Positions 20,930 to 59,460 of a stretch of 64,000 bases of DNA are shown in pieces (the first letter of the stretch is position 1; each line of letters begins with the position of its first letter). The notes under the pieces were generated by a model. That model had not been told where the DNA came from, did not search any database, and was given only the letters and a program-made list of their open reading frames with translations. The DNA comes from an uncultured Isosphaeraceae bacterium (GTDB lineage Bacteria; Planctomycetota; Phycisphaerae; Phycisphaerales; SM1A02), in the NCBI GenBank assembly GCA_964435395.1, contig CAYSYI010000001.1:42516-106515 (forward strand), given 5' to 3'. The position numbers and the translations under genes were made by a program.

Positions 20930-21017
20930 GGACAGGTGACCGAGCGGCTGATGGTGCAGCACTGGAAATGCTGTGTGCGCCTTGTGCGTACCGAGGGTTC
21001 GAATCCCTCCCTGTCCG
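20930..21017 (+). tRNA. tRNA-Ser (anticodon GGA), long variable arm
   Basis: Hand-folded cloverleaf: acceptor GGACAGG/CCTGTCC, anticodon stem CAGCA/TGCTG with loop CTGGAAA, 6-bp variable stem, T-arm GAGGG-TTCGAAT-CCCTC. No encoded CCA. Confidence 0.85.
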
Positions 21018-21021
21018 TTTG

Positions 21022-21096
21022 CGGGCTGTAGCGCAGCTTGGTTAGCGCGCCTGACTGGGGGTCAGGAGGTCGGAGGTTCAAATCCTCTCAGCCCGA
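21022..21096 (+). tRNA. tRNA-Pro (anticodon GGG)
   Basis: Acceptor CGGGCTG/CAGCCCG, D-stem GCGC/GCGC, anticodon stem CCTGA/TCAGG with loop CTGGGGG, T-loop TTCAAAT. It starts 4 nt after tRNA-Ser. Confidence 0.85.
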
Positions 21097-50120: not shown

Positions 50121-50157
50121 AAAAAAAAGGCTCGCGGCATGTGGTGGGTCATGCCGC
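50121..50157 (-). terminator. rho-independent terminator (minus strand), distal
   Basis: The minus strand reads GCGGCATG-acccacca-CATGCCGC-GAGCC-TTTTTTTT. Confidence 0.6.
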
Positions 50158-50200
50158 AAGCCAAGGGAAGGTAGTCGAACAAAGTTCGACCGACTTGAGG

Positions 50201-50241: not shown

Positions 50242-50415
50242 TTAGTACCTTACGTCCGTGCAGGTACTTTCAAGTGAAAGAGTCGTCCTTGACTCATGCT
50301 GTGCAGCAGGTGCTGCAAGTATTTCAAAGAAGGTCGAAGCGTCATCCGTGGCGCTACTTCCCTCGAGTACTGAGCGTCCCTGCTCAGCAATAGAAATCGA
50401 TGTAGTGCGACTCAT
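50242..50415 (-). CDS. candidate 57-aa protein translationally coupled to mraZ
   Basis: Its ATG overlaps the mraZ stop (ATGA). MSRTTSISIAEQGRSVLEGSSATDDASTFFEILAAPAAQHESRTTLSLESTCTDVRY. A strong terminator follows. No homology recognised. Confidence 0.3.
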   Translation of the reverse strand: MSRTTSISIAEQGRSVLEGSSATDDASTFFEILAAPAAQHESRTTLSLESTCTDVRY

Positions 50416-50867
50416 GACTGCCCTCCGGCCGAGCTCTTCTTTTTCCTTGCTCGTTTCATGATGTCGCGAAGTTTTGCAAGATTTTCCGCTCGTTTTGCGT
50501 TCCAAGTGACAAAATTGTGCACTTCCAAATGATCTCCTGCTCCCAGCACGAATGCTTGATCTGCTATTCCTGCAAGAGACAACAATGTATCGGGGAGACG
50601 AATTCGTCCCTGCTTGTCGAGTTCGATTCTTCTGGATTGCGAAAAAAGGATTTGTTCGAACTCCATGACGTCCTCGTCTGGAAGCAATGTCTGTTCGAGC
50701 GAACTCGCCTTCTTCTCGAAGGTATCTTCCGGTGAGAGCCAAATCGTATCGTTCGGGCCTGGCGAAGCATAAACAATTCCTGAGGAAAATCCTGCACGCA
50801 TCTCTGCTGGTAAAGAGATTCGCAACTTTTCGTCGATAGATCGTTCTGTTTCGCCTGTAAATAACAT
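50412..50867 (-). CDS. mraZ: transcriptional regulator MraZ
   Basis: MLFTGETERSIDEKLRISLPAEMR and ELDKQGRIRLPDTL form the duplicated SpoVT/AbrB-type MraZ halves. Confidence 0.9.
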   Translation of the reverse strand: MLFTGETERSIDEKLRISLPAEMRAGFSSGIVYASPGPNDTIWLSPEDTFEKKASSLEQTLLPDEDVMEFEQILFSQSRRIELDKQGRIRLPDTLLSLAGIADQAFVLGAGDHLEVHNFVTWNAKRAENLAKLRDIMKRARKKKSSAGGQS

Positions 50868-51614: not shown

Positions 51615-52667
51615 TTACACTAGTGCATGCAGTCGCATTTGGAGGGATTCAATAAAACGAGACGGTGTAACAAGTGAACGAACCGTCGCAACTCGATCTG
51701 CACACTCAATCTGAGAAGACGAGGTGCTACTCTCAAGATTTAGCATCCACCCACTCACTTCAATATCATCAGCTACCCACGCAATGTGTGGACCTACCGT
51801 TGAAATAGTTGATGCTGGGTGATTCTTCGATACTGCGAGTGGTGTTTCAACGCACGCAGCAGACAGAACATCTAACACATTTGTGGAACGATCAAATTGT
51901 GCTATTGAAGGACACCAAGCACAATGAGCTATGTGCACGACATCGACCTGACGAATTGATGGAGGGACATCATGAAATTTACTACGCAACCCATGTGTTT
52001 TCGCTGCATTCATGAGTATCGCACGGTCTCTATATCGAGGAGGAAGTACAAAATGCACCGAGGGGAGTATGGTGTTTAGACGAACTGCCATATCAATGAT
52101 GTTTTGCCAAGAACCAACATCACCAACAATACTTATAAGGAACTCCTCACCGCTCAATCCCAATGCTTCCTGAACGGTTGCCCGATTTGCTACAACTGCT
52201 GATGGCTCAACGCCGATGAGCGGCTCTGTTAACTGCGATGGCCGTACACCGGCTTCGATTGCAACAGCAACTGCACACATTGTCGTTGGTATGACAATGT
52301 GTTCGCTCGCACAAGGAGCCCACAAATCAATCTCATCAATCATTGCGTATACGTCATACTCTTGCGAGCATTTCTCGGTTGACCTCATCGCTTGCCATCC
52401 CCAAGCAAGTATCTTTTCTGGTCTTAACTGTTGCGTTTCTTTCAGAAAACGTAGCAACCTCTTATTCAATGTCTTTGATGCATCAAGAGATCCGCTAAGT
52501 GAACCAAGAACTGGAACGCCTTGATTTCGACACCAAGTTGCGTCGTCGCCAGTACCAAGAACGAGCACTCGATGCTCCTCTTGATGCAACTGATGTATTG
52601 CGAGTCGCATCAAACCAAAAAGTGATGTTGAAGTCGTAAAATGAGATGGCGAAAATACGTGCAACAT
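51615..52667 (-). CDS. hypothetical protein, possibly a degenerate GT-B glycosyltransferase fold
   Basis: 350-aa ORF and last gene of the ParA-like operon. MLHVFSPS...RVLVLGTG...LGLSGEEFLISIVGD...VHFVLP has the spacing of a GT4-like scaffold, but I saw no clear catalytic motif. Confidence 0.5.
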   Translation of the reverse strand: MLHVFSPSHFTTSTSLFGLMRLAIHQLHQEEHRVLVLGTGDDATWCRNQGVPVLGSLSGSLDASKTLNKRLLRFLKETQQLRPEKILAWGWQAMRSTEKCSQEYDVYAMIDEIDLWAPCASEHIVIPTTMCAVAVAIEAGVRPSQLTEPLIGVEPSAVVANRATVQEALGLSGEEFLISIVGDVGSWQNIIDMAVRLNTILPSVHFVLPPRYRDRAILMNAAKTHGLRSKFHDVPPSIRQVDVVHIAHCAWCPSIAQFDRSTNVLDVLSAACVETPLAVSKNHPASTISTVGPHIAWVADDIEVSGWMLNLESSTSSSQIECADRVATVRSLVTPSRFIESLQMRLHALV

Positions 52668-52676
52668 TCACATGCA

Positions 52677-53327
52677 CTACTTTCGGTCTAGATTCTCGCC
52701 CAATCGACCTGTCGTATGTGCGTAAAAGACTTTTGCTATGGAGTCAGCGAGTTTCAGCGAAAGTTCCTCTGCAAGTTCTCTAGCTTCTGAAGCAGTCGTT
52801 ACACGATTTGGACCTACATGCTGCATTCTTTCTGCCACAGTAAGTGATGCTGATTCGAGAGGGAACAGACGTTCTCTATTTTCCACATCAATAATTCGAA
52901 GATTGCAACTCGTTCGTGGATTCGCAGTCTGCCCATCACTTGTCAGGCCAAATGCCGTCATCTCAATATAAATAACAACAGTAGCGCCTACTGCTTTCCC
53001 AATTTCATCGACTGGCAATGGTTCATTGTATTTGTCGTTTGTCACGCTCACTCGCATGGCATCGCGGGGCGATATCATCGTTGTTAACAATTCCCGCCCG
53101 AGCAGTTCTTCTGTAATCTTATCTGCGATAACTCGACGAAGCCGAGTGGGATGCATTACGTTTCTCCGGTCGTCAACAAAGACTACCGTTGGAACATTCG
53201 GAAGTTCGAACAGTGCTTCCTGTTCTGGATCTGGAGATGTGACGTATGCGACGACGGCTGCAATATTGCATGAGCCAAGGACAACGCAAACACAACAAAT
53301 TATGAACAGCAAAAGAATGCGTTTCAT
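52677..53327 (-). CDS. lipoprotein of unknown function (paralog B)
   Basis: Lipobox VVLGSC. PTVVFVDDRRN...VDEIGKAVGATVVIYIEMTAFGL aligns by eye with the upstream paralog. Confidence 0.65.
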   Translation of the reverse strand: MKRILLLFIICCVCVVLGSCNIAAVVAYVTSPDPEQEALFELPNVPTVVFVDDRRNVMHPTRLRRVIADKITEELLGRELLTTMISPRDAMRVSVTNDKYNEPLPVDEIGKAVGATVVIYIEMTAFGLTSDGQTANPRTSCNLRIIDVENRERLFPLESASLTVAERMQHVGPNRVTTASEARELAEELSLKLADSIAKVFYAHTTGRLGENLDRK

Positions 53328-53998
53328 TGGTCAAGCTCCGGCCGATATCGATCTGGATGCTTTGGTTCTTCGTGAAAGTAAAATAACCATGCGGCGTTTT
53401 TTATAAACTCATGAAGTAATCCCTGCTGAATCGTCTCTTTACTTGCCTCTTCACGGCTTAACACAGAGGGGCGTCGAGGAAATTCAACCGCAATCTCGTA
53501 TGAGTCTGCGAAACCATCGTGTTCATAACTCCCTGCTTCAATAATTCCAATTGTTGCAGAACATCTCCCCTCCCAAAGCCACTGATTCCCTGGTGGAGTT
53601 AGAGAATAGTTTTGTAAGTCAATAAAAACAACGCGATCGACGTTCAGCGCCTTTGCAATTTCAGTCGAGGGCATTGCGGACCACTGTGGCGTTTCAAATT
53701 GCCAACGCGCCACAACATCCGGACGAACGACTTCTACATCCGGAACGTTCTTTGCAATTCTCGATGCTATCCCTCCTGCGATAGTAGTTGATACACCGGG
53801 GTGCTCATAATGAACTGCGAGATCAGTATCAATAACAACTGCCACTCGATGCCCCTCAAGGGAATACTCTGCTGGCTTCTCGATTAACATTTGATCTTCC
53901 ATCGCTTGTTTGCCAGCACCAATAAAGCCAAAGACAGAACAGCCTACGCCAGTTAGCGTGGCTACTGAAGCGAGTGAAATAAGAATGATTCGAATCAT
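53324..53998 (-). CDS. lipoprotein of unknown function (paralog A)
   Basis: Lipobox LTGVGC. HRVAVVIDTD...STEIAKALNVDRVVFIDLQNYSL. 4-nt overlaps with both neighbours. Confidence 0.65.
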   Translation of the reverse strand: MIRIILISLASVATLTGVGCSVFGFIGAGKQAMEDQMLIEKPAEYSLEGHRVAVVIDTDLAVHYEHPGVSTTIAGGIASRIAKNVPDVEVVRPDVVARWQFETPQWSAMPSTEIAKALNVDRVVFIDLQNYSLTPPGNQWLWEGRCSATIGIIEAGSYEHDGFADSYEIAVEFPRRPSVLSREEASKETIQQGLLHEFIKNAAWLFYFHEEPKHPDRYRPELDQ

Positions 53999-54525
53999 AA
54001 AACACCTTTGTGCAAAAGAATTTTAAATCCCCACGCTGCAAGCGCGAGCCCGATGAGAAGAAAAAATATTCTTGAAGGAGGAAATCGATAAAGCAACGGC
54101 TGAAAAGAATACCCTGTACATGCGGTGACACTTCCACCAATAAAAACTAAAAATGCAGCGAGAGCGAGGAGCATACCAAGTGGCTGCGTCATAAATGCCG
54201 TGGCAAACTCCCCACGAACTGTATGACTCCACGCCGTCGTCATCCCACACGTCGGGCAGGGAACATCTGCAGCGAGAATCCAGCCACACTGTGGGAGCCC
54301 AAGTTGCTGATGGGTGCCGAGACCTTTCCCTGAAGGTTGGAGCACAAAAGCAATTGACAGGAGAAACAAAGCTGCCAAAGCAACTCCAATCGCATGAATT
54401 CGTCGTCGTCTCTCTGATTTTACTGGGACACATATTTCAACTGTTTCTTTTTGTTCCTGCATCACGTGTACAGGATACCCGCCCTTTACCCACAGGGCTT
54501 GGTTTGTTAATTCAACGGCGTGCAA
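53995..54525 (-). CDS. DUF2752-family membrane protein
   Basis: LPQCGWILAADVPCPTCGMTTAWSH is the Cys-x-Cys ribbon typical of DUF2752. Flanked by TM helices. Confidence 0.7.
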   Translation of the reverse strand: MHAVELTNQALWVKGGYPVHVMQEQKETVEICVPVKSERRRRIHAIGVALAALFLLSIAFVLQPSGKGLGTHQQLGLPQCGWILAADVPCPTCGMTTAWSHTVRGEFATAFMTQPLGMLLALAAFLVFIGGSVTACTGYSFQPLLYRFPPSRIFFLLIGLALAAWGFKILLHKGVL

Positions 54526-55712
54526 AATACGCCTGTCTTACCTTCAACTTCAACTTCAGTTAGAAGGTGTAATCGAACACCACTACCTTGTAAATCAGCA
54601 ACTGACGGTGCGTTATTCGTAAAGAAGTGTTGGATAGGAACCGAGGATAGATCAATTTCGATACCATTACATGCCATCGCAACAAGCGAGCTGTTACGAA
54701 TTGCCCATGCTGTCACTATTGATGCTTCTCTAAAGTCATCAACAAATGCAAGGATATGCAAGCAACCTTCGCTATCAACTGCTAGCTCAATCTGTTCATG
54801 TTCAGGGCAACGCGGCGTAATAGCGAGCAAGCCATCTATTCGAGATACGAAAGTTTCCGAAGAACTTGATGTTTCTTGAGCAGTATGAACTGGCACTTTT
54901 GAATCTTCTTGCATTGGTGGTTCAATAGAAGCAGCCACTTCTTGAGTTTCAGGCACCTTCGATGTCGGCGCTACTCGCTGTAGCGTTTCCTTCGAGCTGA
55001 ATCTTGGAGTCAAAGGCAAATCAGTTGCGCTTGAGTTCTCTTGAGTCTCTGTTCGTAATCGACCCACAAAGTCAACAACATTGCTTGACCGAGGAAAAGT
55101 AACTTGAGAAACAACGTTGCTTGTGCTTCCCATCGCGGGCAGTGGATGTCCAACTTCTAGATTTACACCAAGTTGATGGTGTGCAGTTTGAACAATTCGA
55201 CTCGCAGCATCACTTGACGCTCGTTCTTCTGCCCCAACAATTACTAAACGAATAGAAGGAAGGTTCACACCCTCGCTCGTTGCGCTTATCAATCCCTTGA
55301 GCAATCTATACGCACCAACGACTGCCGCCTGATCCGCACCTGAAAGAAGTGTGACGTAGTCTGCATCGCAATGCAACAAAGAGGTAGGGTCTGCATCCGA
55401 CGGCGGTTGAATAATCCAATTTGTTATGTGGCCATCAAGGTGCTCGATAACCTCTTCGATTGAAGTGCATGTTGTAATATCACAATTCCGCTCTTTACCA
55501 ATGATGGCAACATCAATCGAATCCTCATGCATACGAACAAGAACTGAAGTGCCACCTTGAGCCTCTCGGCCTGCGTATGGAACAAGCCATAATCCACCTT
55601 GAACTGGAAGATGCGCAGGAAGAAGAAGTTCAATTGATGCACGCTCGGAAGAATCCGAACTTGTCGTAAACATTGCTGCAAGTTGTGCGTATTGTTCAGA
55701 GCTCGGTGCCAT
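54507..55712 (-). CDS. hypothetical protein: P-loop-less ParA/MinD-like N-domain, S/T/P/E-rich linker, unknown C-domain
   Basis: 401 aa. DYVTLLSGADQAAVVGAYRLLKGLI...IRLVIVGAEERASSDAASRIV resembles the second half of ParA/MinD folds, but there is no Walker A. Overlaps both neighbours by 17 and 19 nt. Confidence 0.6.
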   Translation of the reverse strand: MAPSSEQYAQLAAMFTTSSDSSERASIELLLPAHLPVQGGLWLVPYAGREAQGGTSVLVRMHEDSIDVAIIGKERNCDITTCTSIEEVIEHLDGHITNWIIQPPSDADPTSLLHCDADYVTLLSGADQAAVVGAYRLLKGLISATSEGVNLPSIRLVIVGAEERASSDAASRIVQTAHHQLGVNLEVGHPLPAMGSTSNVVSQVTFPRSSNVVDFVGRLRTETQENSSATDLPLTPRFSSKETLQRVAPTSKVPETQEVAASIEPPMQEDSKVPVHTAQETSSSSETFVSRIDGLLAITPRCPEHEQIELAVDSEGCLHILAFVDDFREASIVTAWAIRNSSLVAMACNGIEIDLSSVPIQHFFTNNAPSVADLQGSGVRLHLLTEVEVEGKTGVFCTPLN

Positions 55713-56640
55713 CTCTATTCTCTTCTGGGTTTATTCGACCGATGACGGGCGACTGTTGCGATTCAGAAAATGTGCCAACTCGCCGAGCAAGTTCTGCGGC
55801 ACGTCCACCAACTCCAGTTGTTACTTCGATAATTGGTGCAGGTGGAGTATACATCTCTTCTAACCATTCTATTAAAGCTTCGAAATCTCGTTCAGCTTCA
55901 CTCCCTGGAGCAAACTCACATATTGGCTGCCCAAAACTCGCAGCTTCTCTAAGGGTTTCATGGTCTCGAATAACTGTTGGGGCAACCTCAGGTGCAAATG
56001 ACTCTTGCAATCGTTGCAATAATGTTCGGGCAAGCGGCGAGGGGCGATGAATGGATGGAATAATTCGACATGGAAGAGGTTTTCCAATTCTTGCAATGAG
56101 CGCATCGACCGTTTTTCGCTGGCGTCGAGCGCCTCGAAGTGAGAAATAGCCTGTTTCAACAGGAATCAACGCTTCAGTTGCTGCTCGCAACGCGTTGTAT
56201 GTCAGTAATCCAATATTGGGAGGGCAATCGATTACGCAACGATCAAAATCAGTTTCCCAAGCTTTCAACACGCCTTCAAGCCGGCAATCACGGTCTGGCA
56301 TACTCTGCAAAGCCCCCCCTGGCGCCTCAATGGCTGTCAGCATCATCGTGCTTGGAGCGAGATGTAAATTCCGGGTAATTTCCCAAAGATATTTCTCCTT
56401 CTCGAGCGGGGCATCATGGGAAGCAATCATTGCATCCCCAATATTTTTTTCAATTTGATCCTCAGGAACCCCAAGTCCCGCAGCACAATGTGCTTGAGGA
56501 TCCATATCGATCAATACCGTTCTCAACCCACGCTTCGCATACAAAGCGGCTAGGTTAATCGATGTTGTCGTTTTACCACAACCCCCTTTTTGATTCACTA
56601 TCGCAAATGTACGCACGTATGATTCCTCTCTGGGCTCCAA
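55696..56640 (-). CDS. ParA/Soj/MinD-family P-loop ATPase with a C-terminal extension
   Basis: Deviant Walker A FAIVNQKGGCGKTTTSINLA, then LIDMDPQ and VIDCPPNIG. About 60 extra C-terminal residues. Confidence 0.85.
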   Translation of the reverse strand: MEPREESYVRTFAIVNQKGGCGKTTTSINLAALYAKRGLRTVLIDMDPQAHCAAGLGVPEDQIEKNIGDAMIASHDAPLEKEKYLWEITRNLHLAPSTMMLTAIEAPGGALQSMPDRDCRLEGVLKAWETDFDRCVIDCPPNIGLLTYNALRAATEALIPVETGYFSLRGARRQRKTVDALIARIGKPLPCRIIPSIHRPSPLARTLLQRLQESFAPEVAPTVIRDHETLREAASFGQPICEFAPGSEAERDFEALIEWLEEMYTPPAPIIEVTTGVGGRAAELARRVGTFSESQQSPVIGRINPEENRDGTEL

Positions 56641-56718: not shown

Positions 56719-57825
56719 CTATGCGGTCGCGCCTACAGATGCCCACGCCAATCCAATTGCACCGGAGTCAATTCCGTCCACGACAGACGCCCCGGTTCCT
56801 GTTGGCAAGACTAGTCGAATCGAGGAATCGAGTGTTTTTTTGTCTCTTTGCATAAATGCCAACAACTCCTCAACCTGCACGGGAATCGGCAGCCTTGTTG
56901 GCAATCCAAGTTTTTTCAATATGGTTCGAATTCGATCAACATACTCGGCGTCAATGAGATCCATCGCTTCAGCGCACGACACCGATGCACACAATCCAAT
57001 TGAAACAGCTTCACCATGAAAGAGTGAAAGTTCAGGAAGTGGTTCAATTGCATGTGCAAATGTATGGCCAAGATTCAGCAGTGCTCGACACCCAACCTCT
57101 CGCTCGTCCTTCACAACGACCTCTGCTTTTATGCGAGCACATTGAGAAACAAGTTCAACCATCAAGTCAGCTTCACGAGTGAAGATTGCATCTATATTTT
57201 TCTCAATCCAAACAAGCAGCGAGTCATTGCCGAGCATTGCGTGTTTTACACATTCTGCAAGTCCACAGCGTAACTGTCGATCATCAAGGGTCTGCAACGT
57301 GTCTACGTCCGCAACAACAAGCGAAGGTTGCCAAAACGAACCAGCAAGATTTTTCCCAAGAATGACTTCGCCATCTTGTCGTTCAATTGGCAAGTTAATC
57401 CCTGTCTTGCCTCCAATCGAAGCATCGACCATCGCAAGCAGCGTTGTTGGCACTTGGATAACTGGAACGCCTCGCATGAAAGTTGCAGCAGCAAAACCAC
57501 CTACATCTCCTACAAGTCCTCCACCAACAGCGAGTAGTGGAGTGCTTCGATCACAACTGTATGAAAGCATCGCGCTCCAAACATCCTGAATTGTGCTCAT
57601 AGTTTTATTTGATTCAAGTGCCTGTACTGAGCACGCGTCTGTTTCTTCTGAAAAGGATTGGATGGCAACGCTACCGTGCGTCGACTCTACGTTTTCGTCC
57701 AATACAAAAAAGTATTTTGAAGCTGGCACTATCTTGCGAACGATATCGCCAAGATTTTGAAGTATGCCACTTCCAATCTGTATGGAATATGCACAATCAC
57801 CAAGTAAAACTTTGACTTCTTTCAA
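56719..57825 (-). CDS. aroB: 3-dehydroquinate synthase
   Basis: GGGLVGDVGGFAAATFMRGVPVIQVPTTLLAMVDASIGGKTGINL and LNLGHTFAHAIE motifs. Confidence 0.9.
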   Translation of the reverse strand: MKEVKVLLGDCAYSIQIGSGILQNLGDIVRKIVPASKYFFVLDENVESTHGSVAIQSFSEETDACSVQALESNKTMSTIQDVWSAMLSYSCDRSTPLLAVGGGLVGDVGGFAAATFMRGVPVIQVPTTLLAMVDASIGGKTGINLPIERQDGEVILGKNLAGSFWQPSLVVADVDTLQTLDDRQLRCGLAECVKHAMLGNDSLLVWIEKNIDAIFTREADLMVELVSQCARIKAEVVVKDEREVGCRALLNLGHTFAHAIEPLPELSLFHGEAVSIGLCASVSCAEAMDLIDAEYVDRIRTILKKLGLPTRLPIPVQVEELLAFMQRDKKTLDSSIRLVLPTGTGASVVDGIDSGAIGLAWASVGATA

Positions 57826-58544
57826 GTTGCGCCCTCCGAATCCTCGTACAACATTGCGAGCGCTTCAGACGGTTCTTCTGGCAACTCACCCACAGTTTCA
57901 CTAGTGGCGTCAAGCACTTCATTTGTTTTGATTGCTCTTCTCTTACCCAAACTTTTTTTCCCTTTACACACTTTAACAATCACAAAAAAACCAACAGCGA
58001 TAACACACAATAAGGGAATTGCCAACAATGCGGTCGGGATTTTTTCTTGCAATGCTGATGTTTGTAAAACAAATTGCGTGGTCACAAACGTAGGGTACAA
58101 GCGTTCTCGATTGTCGCGTCCCTGAATTGACATAGTTTTATAAAACAGCGCTGGCCCCTCGATAGTTTGCGGCTGGGACAGGCCACTCTTTCCAACGACA
58201 TATAAACCAAACAGATTCCCCTCACCATCTCGAACAAAGAGTTCTTCTACGCCACTCCAAGGTGCTGACATGGATTTCTGGAGCTCCACTTGCCCAACTA
58301 CAGTGAAGAGATTTCCTCGAAATAGTTCCGGAGTAGCTAGTAACGCTGAGGTGTTTGGGCTTTCCGAAGTTTCAGCAGAGCCCTCCCATCCTCGAACATG
58401 ATCGATCAAAGCTGCAAACCCTTCGCCCCTAGAATCCAGCCCATCGACGACTGCTTGGAGTTGAATTTGAGTATTTTCTCCAATGGGGGAAATATCTCCT
58501 ATCCTGAATAGACAGAAAAGCAGTATCAAAGTCTCTCGGTGCAT
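57822..58544 (-). CDS. single-pass membrane protein of unknown function
   Basis: N-terminal signal MHRETLILLFCLF (start trimmed from 58601, which abuts tRNA-Glu). C-terminal TM LLAIPLLCVIAVGFFVIV. 4-nt overlap with aroB. Confidence 0.55.
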   Translation of the reverse strand: MHRETLILLFCLFRIGDISPIGENTQIQLQAVVDGLDSRGEGFAALIDHVRGWEGSAETSESPNTSALLATPELFRGNLFTVVGQVELQKSMSAPWSGVEELFVRDGEGNLFGLYVVGKSGLSQPQTIEGPALFYKTMSIQGRDNRERLYPTFVTTQFVLQTSALQEKIPTALLAIPLLCVIAVGFFVIVKVCKGKKSLGKRRAIKTNEVLDATSETVGELPEEPSEALAMLYEDSEGAT

Positions 58545-58601
58545 TTTTACAGGATACTCGTAGCAGCGAAGTCGTGAGTAGAGTATCATTCCTCGCCTCA
58601 A

Positions 58602-58675
58602 GGTCCCATCGTCTAGTCAGGTCAGGACACCAGGTTTTCATCCTGGGAACAGGGGTTCGAATCCCCTTGGGATCA
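58602..58675 (+). tRNA. tRNA-Glu (anticodon UUC)
   Basis: Acceptor GGTCCCA/TGGGATC, D-arm GTCT..GGAC, anticodon stem CCAGG/CCTGG with loop TTTTCAT, T-arm AGGGG-TTCGAAT-CCCCT. Confidence 0.85.
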
Positions 58676-58694: not shown

Positions 58695-59333
58695 ATGATT
58701 TCAGCACTCGCTCTTCCACTCATTCTTCTTTCTGCATCTCCCGATTTTCAACCGATCGATTTTGCTGCTGCAACGAGTTTATCGTTCGATTGCCAGCCGG
58801 AGATGCCAGATGCTCCGATTGAAGTGCAAGAAAAAAGCACAATGGAAGCGCTACCACCGACCTGGGGTATGAAAGACACATGGCGTTGGAGCATCCAAGG
58901 GGGCTGGGCAAAAGATGTCAAAAATTCCGAGAATACGCTCGAGGTGTACGGTGTTGAATTTGACTATTTTGTTGACGAGAATTTGAGTCTTGACCTTGGT
59001 TTTTTTGGAATGACTGTCGATCAAGATGGTCCAAATGCAAACGGTTTTAATTTTACGTTGCAACTGCGGTGGCATTTCATCGCAAAAGAATCGTGGTCTA
59101 TGTTTCTCGAAGGCGGTGCGGGGCTGCTTCGTACAAGCGATAACGTTCCATCGGGTGGCTCAAGTTTTAACTTTACGCCACAAGCGGGACTCGGATTCTC
59201 GTTTGACATTGGCAATCAAAATCGTTGGCTTGTAGGCGTAAAATGGCATCACATTTCAAATGCAAATACGTATTCGACTAACCCTGGTCGCGACAGCATC
59301 ATGATCTGGAGCGGCATTTCGTTTCCCTTTTAG
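58695..59333 (+). CDS. outer-membrane beta-barrel, lipid A 3-O-deacylase (PagL)-like
   Basis: Alternating beta-strand pattern. WHHISNANTYSTNPGRDS (H-x-S-N plus NPG) and a terminal aromatic residue (FPF). Confidence 0.65.
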   Translation: MISALALPLILLSASPDFQPIDFAAATSLSFDCQPEMPDAPIEVQEKSTMEALPPTWGMKDTWRWSIQGGWAKDVKNSENTLEVYGVEFDYFVDENLSLDLGFFGMTVDQDGPNANGFNFTLQLRWHFIAKESWSMFLEGGAGLLRTSDNVPSGGSSFNFTPQAGLGFSFDIGNQNRWLVGVKWHHISNANTYSTNPGRDSIMIWSGISFPF

Positions 59334-59337
59334 CGAA

Positions 59338-59460
59338 GGGTCTGTCCCCGGGTCTGACCCTTGCTCTGTCCCCTGCTCTGTCCCCGGGTCTGACCCTTGC
59401 TCTGTCCCCTGCTCTGTCCCCCGCTCTGGCCCCGGGTCTGACCCTTGACCTGACCCTAGC
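59338..59460 (+). repeat. array of ~10 degenerate 12-nt units (36-nt superunit, two perfect copies) built from GGGTCTGACCC / TCTGTCCCC
   Basis: Begins 4 nt after the stop codon. GGGTCTGTCCCC GGGTCTGACCCTTGC TCTGTCCCCTGC TCTGTCCCC GGGTCTGACCCTTGC ... Exact GGGTCTGACCC at ~59350, ~59386 and ~59434. Confidence 0.9.

What the first reader, a model, noticed from the sequence alone, without database searches (positions are those of the whole stretch)
51615..56640. Six-gene translationally coupled operon: ParA-like ATPase, P-loop-less ParA-like partner, DUF2752, two paralogous lipoproteins, GT-B-like protein
All six minus-strand genes overlap or nearly abut (overlaps of 17, 19, 4 and 4 nt, then a 9-nt gap), indicating one unit with fixed stoichiometry. 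Gene 1 is a bona fide deviant-Walker-A ParA/MinD ATPase (KGGCGKTT) with a ~60-aa C-terminal extension. No parB, parS-type or min partner is present. Gene 2 (401 aa) resembles the second half of a ParA/MinD fold without a P-loop, followed by a long S/T/P/E-rich linker and an unknown C-terminal domain. Gene 3 is a DUF2752 membrane protein with a CPxCG ribbon. Genes 4 and 5 are paralogous lipoproteins whose layout (lipobox, then an alternating beta-alpha core: VAVVIDTD...IAKALNVDRVVFIDL) recalls LpoB/TolB-N-like envelope lipoproteins. Gene 6 has a GT-B-like scaffold without obvious catalytic residues. A cytoplasmic positioning ATPase wired to a membrane protein and to envelope lipoproteins is the architecture expected for a spatial organiser of envelope or cell-wall synthesis or division. 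I know of no described system with this composition, and DUF2752 has no assigned function.
Basis: partly seen in the sequence, partly recalled or inferred. Interest (0 to 1): 0.7.

Follow-up and report, generated by a model that had tools for sequence, protein, structure and literature searches.

The report
ParA-like pair beside an envelope module
A marine planctomycete (class Phycisphaerae) carries a real, conserved gene cluster in which an uncharacterised ParA-type positioning ATPase and its P-loop-less look-alike partner sit directly upstream of a membrane protein, two PelC/LptE-like lipoproteins and a degenerate glycosyltransferase. What the cluster positions or builds is still unknown.

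Summary
The six minus-strand genes exist as described. Two starts are probably over-extended, so the 19-nt g2/g3 overlap is more likely a 44-nt gap.

- g1 is an intact deviant-Walker-A ParA.
- The g2 N-domain has a MinD/ParA/FlhG-type fold (Foldseek only, no sequence homology) with no P-loop. A disordered linker and an orphan C-domain follow.
- g3 is DUF2752.
- g4 and g5 are paralogous lipoproteins with a PelC/LptE-type fold.
- g6 descends from GT4 glycosyltransferases but has no recognisable EX7E motif.

No parB or parS is present. A closer Soj paralogue sits beside the g1 orthologue in a related MAG.

The cluster is two modules, not one ancient six-gene unit. The g1+g2 pair is adjacent in 66 of 68 loci (the other two are cut at a contig end), all Phycisphaerae, and the g2 family has about 1,480 50%-identity clusters. 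In most relatives g1 carries an AMPK-beta-type glycogen-binding domain that the window protein lacks. The g3-g6 module joins the pair only in a subset of lineages. It is often separated from g2 by an opposite-strand M19 dipeptidase gene.

Function is unproven. Best reading: a novel ParA/partner pair, possibly coupled to an envelope scaffold.

The parts
55696..56616 (-). g1: ParA/MinD-family ATPase. It is 306 aa from GTG 56616 (the longest ORF runs to TTG 56640, 314 aa). The Walker A motif NQKGGCGKTT is intact, as are DMDPQ and IDCPP. About 60 aa of C-terminal tail hold a family-wide RAAELARR helix. The tail lacks the CBM48 domain found in most orthologues.
   Evidence: Pfam AAA_31 7.4e-39 and CbiA 4.8e-19. 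PDB ParA 8ray 1.7e-36 and Thermus Soj 3e-27. No NCBIfam equivalog cut-off is reached. Family alignment. Start site.
55032..55640 (-). g2 N-terminal domain (residues ~25-227): a SIMIBI (MinD/ParA/FlhG-like) alpha/beta fold without a P-loop. HLPVQGG occupies the Walker A position. A conserved short helix (residues 5-15, YAQLAAMFTT) precedes it.
   Evidence: AF2 model with mean pLDDT 79.8. Foldseek: FlhG 4rz3 E=2.6e-5, then ParA, MinD, FleN, McdA, NifH. No sequence-profile similarity to the g1 family: hhalign probability 0.4%. Alignments.
54861..55031 (-). g2 linker (residues ~228-284): S/T/P/E-rich, length-variable and predicted disordered.
   Evidence: pLDDT below 50 for residues 227-284. The columns are poorly aligned and variable in length.
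54507..54860 (-). g2 C-terminal domain (residues ~285-401, plus the stop codon): a compact alpha/beta domain with invariant R301, P303, D313, H319, W336, H362, T365 and H382. No known relatives.
   Evidence: pLDDT 90-96. No PDB or Pfam sequence match. Invariant columns.
53995..54462 (-). g3: DUF2752 membrane protein. It is 155 aa from ATG 54462 (the longest ORF runs to TTG 54525). The three hydrophobic segments were identified by eye. It has a conserved GTHxQLGLPxCGW...PCPTCGMTTA (His/Cys) motif.
   Evidence: Pfam DUF2752 7.1e-10, 39.2 bits against a cut-off of 27. Orthologue alignment and start site.
53324..53998 (-). g4: lipoprotein (invariant G19-C20 lipobox) with a PelC/LptE-type fold. Its start overlaps the g3 stop by 4 nt.
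   Evidence: AF2 pLDDT 91, pTM 0.81. Foldseek: PelC 5t11 E=8.6e-7 with TM(target) 0.60, followed by FlgT, GNA1162, CT253 and LptE. No Pfam or PDB sequence hit.
52677..53327 (-). g5: a paralogue of g4 (lipobox LGSC). It overlaps g4 by 4 nt.
   Evidence: BLASTP to g4 at 22% identity, E=3e-4. Profiles cross-hit. Joint alignment with invariant C20, P93, G137, F206 and H209.
51615..52667 (-). g6: a diverged GT4-family (GT-B) protein. The EX7E signature is not recognisable. It starts 9 nt after g5.
   Evidence: The window protein has no Pfam or PDB hit. The marine-clade profile hits the positional orthologue in L008 at E=1.5e-7. Positional orthologues in L143, L134, L147, L125 and L008 pass the Pfam GT4 or GT1 thresholds. 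Motif region.

Best explanation
The cluster is two adjacent modules. In this lineage they have become one co-directional and probably co-transcribed block.

Module 1 (g1+g2) is a Phycisphaerae-wide ParA-type ATPase with a dedicated partner. g1 is catalytically intact, so it should cycle between ATP-bound dimer and monomer like other ParA/MinD proteins (inferred). g2 is always encoded immediately downstream and is often translationally coupled, so it is the cognate partner. I propose that its P-loop-less ParA/MinD-like domain docks on or mimics a g1 monomer (inferred). Its disordered linker and conserved orphan C-domain would connect to whatever is being positioned (inferred). In most relatives g1 itself ends in an AMPK-beta-type glycogen-binding domain, so the ancestral surface or cargo probably involves an alpha-glucan. 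The window lineage has lost that domain.

Module 2 (g3-g6) is a DUF2752 membrane protein, a pair of paralogous PelC/LptE-fold lipoproteins and a GT4 scaffold that has probably lost catalysis. I read it as a non-enzymatic trans-envelope scaffold (inferred).

Whether module 1 positions module 2 is plausible but not shown.
For: g1 and g2:
- g1 has an intact ParA core.
- g1 and g2 are adjacent in 66 of 68 loci, all Phycisphaerae. The other two loci (L041, L048) begin at a contig end, about 40 nt upstream of g2. The 17-nt overlap recurs.
- The g2 family comprises 1,484 50%-identity clusters at E<=1e-3. The sampled named members are all Planctomycetota or Phycisphaerales.
- The g2 N-domain is SIMIBI-like with no Walker A.
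- Most g1 orthologues carry CBM48: Pfam AMPK1_CBM up to 1e-13 and PDB 1z0n at 3.6e-11, with FNNW, DGQW and NNI retained.

Not the chromosomal Soj:
- No parB or parS was found.
- A second ParA next to the g1 orthologue in L044 is far closer to Soj: 178 bits against 99 bits.

Module 2 cohesion:
- 44 of 45 loci have both lipoproteins after g3, and 30 of 36 have g6.

Modularity:
- An M19 dipeptidase gene lies on the opposite strand between g2 and g3 in many relatives.
- The Phycisphaeraceae loci have g1+g2 only.
Against: - No experiment or complex prediction links g1 to g2, or either of them to g3-g6.
- The similarity of g2 to ParA/MinD is structural only. TM to target is 0.45-0.48 at 12% identity, and the profile-profile comparison is negative.
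- The window's g1 lacks the CBM48 domain, so the glucan inference may not apply to this organism.
- PelC/LptE-type folds occur in lipoproteins of many unrelated systems.
- Loss of the EX7E motif was judged by eye against a motif recalled from the literature.
- Flanking housekeeping genes are equally syntenic, so the neighbourhood may partly reflect shared descent.
Confidence: 0.5

Rival explanations
1. One reading: all six proteins form one machine in which the ParA-like ATPase spatially organises an envelope, cell-wall or division complex. This is attractive because Phycisphaerae divide by binary fission without FtsZ.
For: - The six genes are tightly packed in the window.
- 28 of 30 metagenomic loci with enough upstream DNA have g2 upstream of g3, in lineages as divergent as about 41% g3 identity.
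- The block also occurs in L008 and L037, where g2 identity is 28-33%.
- mraZ is conserved a short distance downstream.
Against: - The Phycisphaeraceae loci keep g1+g2 but have no g3-g6 within 10 kb.
- An opposite-strand M19 dipeptidase gene splits g2 from g3 in many relatives.
- aroB and mraZ are equally syntenic, so gene order is not specific evidence.
- No peptidoglycan or divisome domain was detected in any of the six proteins.
- mraZ here is not followed by dcw genes.
Confidence: 0.25
2. A Pel/Bcs-like polysaccharide synthesis and export apparatus. A BcsQ-like ParA/MinD ATPase localises a complex made of a GT4 (PelF-like), an inner-membrane protein and PelC-like lipoproteins.
For: - The g4 fold is closest to PelC.
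- g6 belongs to GT4, and its orthologues pass Pfam thresholds.
- g1 and its orthologues hit Pfam CBP_BcsQ: 1.2e-8 here and up to 2e-19 in orthologues.
- The CBM48 domain on g1 orthologues gives a third carbohydrate-related domain.
- A GNAT acetyltransferase follows g6 in L008.
Against: - No synthase-translocon, porin (PelB, BcsC), flippase or PelD/E/G homologue is present in the cluster.
- The EX7E motif is absent from the whole g6 orthologous group.
- The NCBIfam BcsQ model scores 73.9 against a cut-off of 157.85.
- No Pfam PelC match was found.
Confidence: 0.12
3. g1 is the chromosome-partition ParA (Soj) of this organism, and g2 is a non-orthologous replacement for ParB. g3-g6 are unrelated neighbours.
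For: - The best solved-structure relatives of g1 are chromosomal ParA/Soj proteins.
- g2 occupies the position that parB normally holds.
- The pair is class-wide, as a core function would be.
Against: - g1 scores only 97 bits against a cut-off of 180 for the NCBIfam ParA partition model, and 99 bits to Thermus Soj. A neighbouring paralogue in L044 scores 178 bits to Thermus Soj.
- No parS is present.
- g2 has no detectable DNA-binding or ParB-like domain.
- A glycogen-binding domain on most orthologues is hard to reconcile with centromere segregation.
Confidence: 0.08

Closest known systems
Orphan ParA/MinD positioning systems with a dedicated partner (McdA-McdB for carboxysomes, PomZ-PomXY, ParC-ParP, Soj-Spo0J)
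   Same: g1 is a deviant-Walker-A ATPase with intact catalytic motifs. A partner gene lies immediately downstream and is often translationally coupled. The partner has a long disordered region.
   Different: The g2 partner contains a P-loop-less copy of the ParA/MinD fold plus an orphan C-domain. It has no basic N-terminal peptide, no HTH and no ParB fold. In most orthologues the ATPase itself is fused to a CBM48 glycogen-binding domain. The cargo is unknown.
FlhF-FlhG (two adjacent SIMIBI-class proteins that set flagellar number and place)
   Same: Two SIMIBI-fold proteins are encoded side by side. FlhG is the top structural match of the g2 N-domain.
   Different: FlhF is an active GTPase, whereas g2 has no nucleotide-binding loop. 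No flagellar genes are present in the cluster. The similarity is at fold level only (12% identity).
BcsQ(-BcsR-BcsE) of bacterial cellulose secretion
   Same: It is the precedent for a ParA/MinD-family ATPase wired to an envelope-spanning, glycosyltransferase-containing complex. g1 matches Pfam CBP_BcsQ above that family's cut-off.
   Different: The NCBIfam BcsQ equivalog cut-off is missed by a wide margin. No bcsA, B, C, R or E genes are present. The GT here is a GT4 that looks inactive, not a GT2 synthase.
PelC (Pel exopolysaccharide export) and LptE (LPS insertion) outer-membrane lipoproteins
   Same: g4, and by paralogy g5, are lipoproteins with the same alpha/beta fold (Foldseek E=8.6e-7 to PelC and about 2e-4 to LptE).
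   Different: There is no sequence-level similarity. g4 and g5 are about 70 residues longer and carry a conserved C-terminal WLFYxHxEPKHPDRYRP or FYxHxxGRLGENL segment. They come as a paralogous pair. No PelB- or LptD-type barrel gene is adjacent.
GT4 retaining glycosyltransferases (PelF, WaaG, PimA type)
   Same: g6 is the positional orthologue of proteins that pass the Pfam Glyco_transf_4, Glycos_transf_1 or Glyco_trans_1_4 thresholds.
   Different: The window protein no longer matches any GT model. Both glutamates of the EX7E signature are replaced throughout the orthologous group (for example PLLWAM in place of the expected E...LEAM).

Membership tests
ParA/MinD (deviant Walker A) ATPases - g1 | Deviant Walker A KGGxxGK[ST] with the N-terminal signature lysine | tested here: met
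   NQKGGCGKTT is invariant in 17 aligned family members.
ParA/MinD (deviant Walker A) ATPases - g1 | Family HMM match over the whole NTPase domain, with the Walker A' and Walker B aspartates | tested here: met
   Pfam AAA_31 scores 133.9 bits against a cut-off of 27, and CbiA scores 69 bits. D45/D47 (DMDPQ) and D138 (IDCPP) are invariant and align with ParA 8ray.
ParA/MinD (deviant Walker A) ATPases - g1 | ATP-dependent sandwich dimerisation and partner-stimulated hydrolysis | not testable with these tools
   Needs biochemistry.
Chromosomal Soj/ParA-ParB-parS partition system | Adjacent parB (ParB box II, GERRxRA) | tested here: not met
   No real match in the six-frame translation of the window or in the ORFs of 68 related loci, where all four hits are spurious. 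This was a motif search only, not an HMM search.
Chromosomal Soj/ParA-ParB-parS partition system | parS sites (TGTTNCACGTGAAACA) | tested here: not met
   0 matches at up to 3 mismatches in 64 kb, against 3.65 expected by chance.
Chromosomal Soj/ParA-ParB-parS partition system | Equivalog-level similarity to partition ParA | tested here: not met
   NF041546 scores 97.1 bits against a cut-off of 180. A paralogue in L044 is much closer to Soj: 178.5 bits against 98.7 bits to 1wcv.
MinD | MinD equivalog score and minC/minE neighbours | tested here: not met
   TIGR01968 scores 40.3 bits against a cut-off of 212.9. None of the ten genes scanned at the cluster matched a MinC or MinE family in Pfam or NCBIfam, and none appears in the gene tables of the same-organism contigs.
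BcsQ (cellulose secretion) | BcsQ equivalog score and bcs operon context | tested here: not met
   TIGR03371 scores 73.9 bits against a cut-off of 157.85. The Pfam domain model is matched (35.2 against 21.3), but no bcs genes are nearby.
SIMIBI NTPases (MinD/ParA/FlhG) - g2 N-domain | Fold | tested here: met
   Most of the top 50 Foldseek PDB hits are SIMIBI proteins, including four of the top five. The best is FlhG at E=2.6e-5, probability 1.0, TM(target) 0.48.
SIMIBI NTPases (MinD/ParA/FlhG) - g2 N-domain | P-loop (GxxxxGK[ST]) and detectable sequence homology | tested here: not met
   The loop after strand 1 is HLPVQGG, with no Lys or Ser/Thr. hhalign against the g1 family gives probability 0.4%. 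No Pfam or NCBIfam hit.
DUF2752 (PF10825) - g3 | Pfam gathering score | tested here: met
   39.2 bits against a cut-off of 27, covering the CPTCG motif and the following hydrophobic segment.
PelC / LptE-type lipoproteins - g4, g5 | Lipoprotein signal with lipobox cysteine | tested here: met
   G19-C20 are nearly invariant to invariant after a hydrophobic N-terminus in both paralogue families. This was judged by inspection; no predictor was run.
PelC / LptE-type lipoproteins - g4, g5 | Fold | tested here: met
   g4 model pLDDT 91. PelC at E=8.6e-7, LptE at about 2e-4. g5 was not modelled; its fold is inferred from paralogy.
PelC / LptE-type lipoproteins - g4, g5 | Sequence-family membership and a partner barrel (PelB or LptD) in context | tested here: not met
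   No Pfam, NCBIfam or PDB sequence hit. No such neighbour was found in the gene tables of same-organism contigs or in the profile searches for the cluster genes across related loci.
GT4 glycosyltransferases - g6 | Family HMM match | tested here: inconclusive
   The window protein has none. Its positional orthologues pass thresholds, and the marine profile links to them at E=1.5e-7.
GT4 glycosyltransferases - g6 | EX7E catalytic and nucleotide-sugar motif | tested here: not met
   The aligned region reads NVLDVLSAACVETPLAV in the window and PLLWAMAAGVPVIAE in Pfam-positive orthologues. Neither glutamate is present. The motif definition was recalled from the literature.

The most novel reading that the evidence does not exclude
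The g1+g2 pair is a previously unrecognised, class-wide ParA-type system of Phycisphaerae whose ATPase is ancestrally fused to a glycogen-binding module. Two readings are open. It could be the first ParA system that partitions glycogen granules. Alternatively, it could couple carbon-store status to spatial control of envelope growth or FtsZ-independent binary fission, using a pseudo-ParA partner and, in many lineages, a DUF2752/PelC-like/pseudo-GT4 trans-envelope scaffold.
Probability: 0.2. Interest if true: 0.85.

Novelty: new variant of a known kind. Interest (0 to 1): 0.6.

Why it matters
ParA/MinD ATPases are the general bacterial solution for placing chromosomes, plasmids, carboxysomes, chemoreceptor arrays and division sites. 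Each new partner type has revealed a new cargo or a new way of regulating the ATPase.

Three features here appear to be undescribed:
- The partner is itself a nucleotide-loop-less copy of the ParA/MinD fold.
- In most relatives the ATPase carries an AMPK-beta-type glycogen-binding domain.
- The partner family is large (about 1,480 50%-identity clusters), matches no Pfam or NCBIfam model, and turned up in none of the literature searches.

The host class divides by binary fission without FtsZ, and how it does so is unknown. A class-wide spatial ATPase is therefore a concrete, testable candidate.

The work also gives first structural assignments to three orphan families and a conserved genomic context for DUF2752.

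Tried and rejected
- Sequence searches of g2, its isolated C-domain, g4/g5 and g6 against Pfam, NCBIfam and PDB sequences found nothing usable.
- The profile-profile comparison of the g2 and g1 families was negative, so I do not claim sequence homology.
- A PADLOC scan gave no defence-system assignment.
- Rfam found only tRNAs in the window.
- Promoter and terminator scans did not exceed shuffled background.
- The third homologue search, with a g4/g5 profile, listed only close marine relatives, so it did not extend the family.
- Literature searches found nothing relevant for DUF2752 (0 papers) or for ParA-like proteins combined with glycogen, CBM48 or Phycisphaerae.
- I rejected the LpoB/TolB-N label for g4/g5 because neither appears in the top 50 structural hits. 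The fold class is nonetheless related.
- I rejected 'second half of a ParA fold' for g2, because the alignment spans about 220 columns of the 244-residue FlhG chain.
- I could not scan whole Phycisphaerae genomes for parAB or for a displaced g3-g6 module.

Full report
**Observation**

The window carries six consecutive minus-strand ORFs at exactly the coordinates given.

Two starts are probably too long.
- g1 most likely begins at GTG 56616 (306 aa). This start follows a GAGAGGAA ribosome-binding site and matches the MRTFAIV start of orthologues.
- g3 most likely begins at ATG 54462 (155 aa), because the preceding 21 residues are not conserved. g2 and g3 are then separated by 44 nt rather than overlapping.

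Base composition is uniform across the region, so there is no sign of a foreign island. The cluster continues upstream on the same strand with aroB (after a 102-nt gap) and an unknown gene that overlaps aroB by 4 nt. A tRNA on the other strand ends the run.

**Organism**

Exact copies of the proteins occur only on marine metagenome contigs. Named homologues come from Phycisphaerales or Planctomycetota MAGs. Many MAG records are labelled 'uncultured Isosphaeraceae', yet they carry the same locus at 47-70% g2 identity to the window.

**What each gene is**

- **g1** is an intact ParA/MinD ATPase. The motifs NQKGGCGKTT, DMDPQ and IDCPP are all invariant in the family. Its closest solved relatives are chromosomal ParA/Soj proteins (8ray 1.7e-36, Thermus Soj 3e-27). 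It reaches no NCBIfam equivalog cut-off, including partition ParA, MinD and BcsQ.
- **g2** has no Pfam or NCBIfam match. An AlphaFold2 model built from 99 homologues is confident in two domains joined by a disordered linker.
  - The N-domain matches mainly SIMIBI NTPases in the PDB. FlhG is best at E=2.6e-5, followed by ParA, MinD, FleN, McdA and NifH. Identity is only about 12%, and a profile-profile comparison with the g1 family is negative.
- The loop where a P-loop would sit reads HLPVQGG. The match covers the whole fold, not just its second half.
  - The C-domain (residues 285-401) has several invariant His, Asp and Arg residues and no detectable relatives.
- **g3** is a DUF2752 protein with a conserved His/Cys motif.
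- **g4 and g5** are paralogues with a conserved lipobox cysteine. The g4 model (pLDDT 91) is closest to the Pel export lipoprotein PelC. FlgT, GNA1162, chlamydial CT253 and LptE follow.
- **g6** has no family match itself. The profile of its marine orthologues finds the positional orthologue in L008 at E=1.5e-7. Several positional orthologues pass Pfam GT4 or GT1 thresholds. In the whole orthologous group the two glutamates of the GT4 EX7E signature (as I recall that motif) are replaced. A non-catalytic scaffold is therefore likely.

**Conservation and modularity**

A genome scan seeded with g2 returned 59 loci, all from Phycisphaerae MAGs. Together with nine loci fetched through exact or homologous proteins, g1 lies immediately upstream of g2 in 66 of 68 loci. 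The other two begin at a contig end just before g2. An exhaustive HMM search finds 1,484 50%-identity clusters of g2 relatives. The named ones that I sampled are Planctomycetota or Phycisphaerales.

The full g1-g6 block is present in the marine clade and in two distant lineages, L008/L009 and L037 (g2 identity 28-33%). In the Phycisphaeraceae loci only g1+g2 are found within 10 kb.

A metagenome scan seeded with g3 gave 80 further loci.
- Where enough DNA is present, 28 of 30 have g2 upstream of g3.
- 44 of 45 have both lipoproteins downstream, and 30 of 36 have g6.
- The g2-g3 junction is variable. It is 150 nt or less in 36 of 60 loci, 0.7-1.3 kb in 18, and longer in 3.
- The inspected insertions hold a family M19 membrane dipeptidase gene on the opposite strand. 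L008 has a DUF6504 gene there instead.
- aroB upstream and mraZ downstream are conserved in the same order. Synteny at this depth therefore also preserves genes that are clearly unrelated in function.

I conclude that the cluster is two cohesive modules, g1-g2 and g3-g6, that are habitual neighbours. In the window lineage they abut directly.

**The glycogen-binding domain**

Most g1 orthologues outside the marine clade are 440-580 aa long and end in a CBM48/AMPK1_CBM domain. This includes orthologues in lineages that also carry g3-g6. The domain aligns to the AMPK beta-1 glycogen-binding domain (1z0n, E=3.6e-11) and retains the FNNW, DGQW and NNI segments. From memory, these segments hold the carbohydrate-contacting residues. 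The window g1 has lost this domain. It keeps a family-wide RAAELARR helix in its tail.

**Is g1 simply Soj?**

The evidence says no, with one caveat.
- No ParB box II motif occurs in the window or in any fetched locus.
- No parS-like sequence occurs in the window.
- In one Phycisphaeraceae MAG (L044), a second ParA next to the g1 orthologue is far closer to Soj: 178 bits against 99 bits to 1wcv. It is only 30% identical to g1.
- I could not scan whole genomes, so a distant parAB locus is neither shown nor excluded.

**Mechanism**

Shown:
- g1 has intact ParA motifs.
- A partner gene is obligatorily adjacent.
- The partner has a SIMIBI-like fold without a P-loop.
- g4 has a PelC/LptE-type fold.
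- g6 has GT4 ancestry and a degenerate motif.
- Orthologues of g1 carry a CBM48 domain.

Inferred:
- g1 works as an ATP-driven dimerisation switch.
- g2 docks on it, or mimics a monomer, through its pseudo-NTPase domain, and links to a target through its linker and C-domain.
- g3-g6 form a trans-envelope, largely non-enzymatic scaffold.

Three carbohydrate-related elements (CBM48, GT4, PelC-like fold) hint at a polysaccharide theme that connects the two modules. This is suggestive only.

**Rivals**

- A Pel/Bcs-like secretion system with a BcsQ-like ATPase.
- A Soj/ParB-substitute pair with unrelated neighbours.

**Comparison with known systems and novelty**

The system works like an orphan ParA/partner pair. 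It fails the membership tests for Soj-ParB, MinD, BcsQ and McdAB-type systems, and its partner architecture is not described. PADLOC gives no defence assignment. Full-text searches found nothing on DUF2752 or on ParA proteins linked to glycogen or CBM48.

I rate it a new variant of a known kind, of moderate to high interest. The genomics is solid and the partner family is large and unannotated. The function is unproven, and the link between the two modules is uncertain.

Noticed in passing
L043:9201-9500 (also L008, L038, L055, L062, L124, L138, L143): Orthologues of g1 outside the marine clade end in an AMPK-beta-type glycogen-binding (CBM48) domain that retains the FNNW, DGQW and NNI segments. 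A ParA fused to a glycogen-binding module appears undescribed. The window protein lacks the domain.
   Followed up: partly
L019:11169-12164 (minus strand); also L124, L133, L139, L143, L115: A family M19 membrane dipeptidase gene (Pfam 1.8e-61) lies on the opposite strand between g2 and g3 in many relatives. It is absent from the window.
   Followed up: yes
L044:6066-7160: A second, more Soj-like ParA (KGGVGKTT; 178 bits to Thermus Soj) is encoded about 1 kb upstream of the g1 orthologue in a Phycisphaeraceae MAG. No parB is next to it.
   Followed up: partly
window 57822-58601 (minus strand): An unknown protein with a C-terminal hydrophobic segment has no Pfam or NCBIfam hit. Its stop overlaps the aroB start by 4 nt. 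The pairing with aroB is conserved in the marine clade and in L008. Its longest ORF abuts a tRNA gene, so the real start is probably further downstream.
   Followed up: no
window 50412-50867 and 50129-50162: mraZ is followed only by a 57-codon ORF and a strong terminator-like hairpin (13 bp, T-run), not by rsmH, ftsL, ftsI or mur genes. This orphan mraZ stays a short distance downstream of g6 in most related loci.
   Followed up: no
window 59341-59444: A tandem array of about 8.7 copies of a 12-nt unit (TCTGTCCCCGGC; also scored as a 36-nt period at 94% match) lies in the intergenic region between the PagL-like gene and fabF.
   Followed up: no
window 58602-58675; 20930-21096: A tRNA gene lies on the plus strand directly upstream of the co-directional g0-aroB-g1...g6 run. 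Two adjacent tRNA genes lie at about 21 kb.
   Followed up: no
L008:7868-8245: In the distant L008/L009 lineage a DUF6504 gene sits between g2 and g3 on the same strand, and a GNAT acetyltransferase follows the GT4 gene.
   Followed up: no
window 58695-59333; L007:5998-7092: Lipid-A-related genes recur near the g1-g2 pair: a PagL-like deacylase in the window, and lpxK in 17 of 32 Phycisphaeraceae loci. This may be coincidental, but it is relevant if g4/g5 are LptE-like.
   Followed up: no
L011, L013-L015, L018, L023-L025, L030, L032-L035: Many MAG records that carry this locus are titled 'uncultured Isosphaeraceae'. Their g2 proteins are 47-70% identical to the window's, and records titled Phycisphaerae or Phycisphaerales fall in the same identity range. 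The label is probably a taxonomic misassignment.
   Followed up: no
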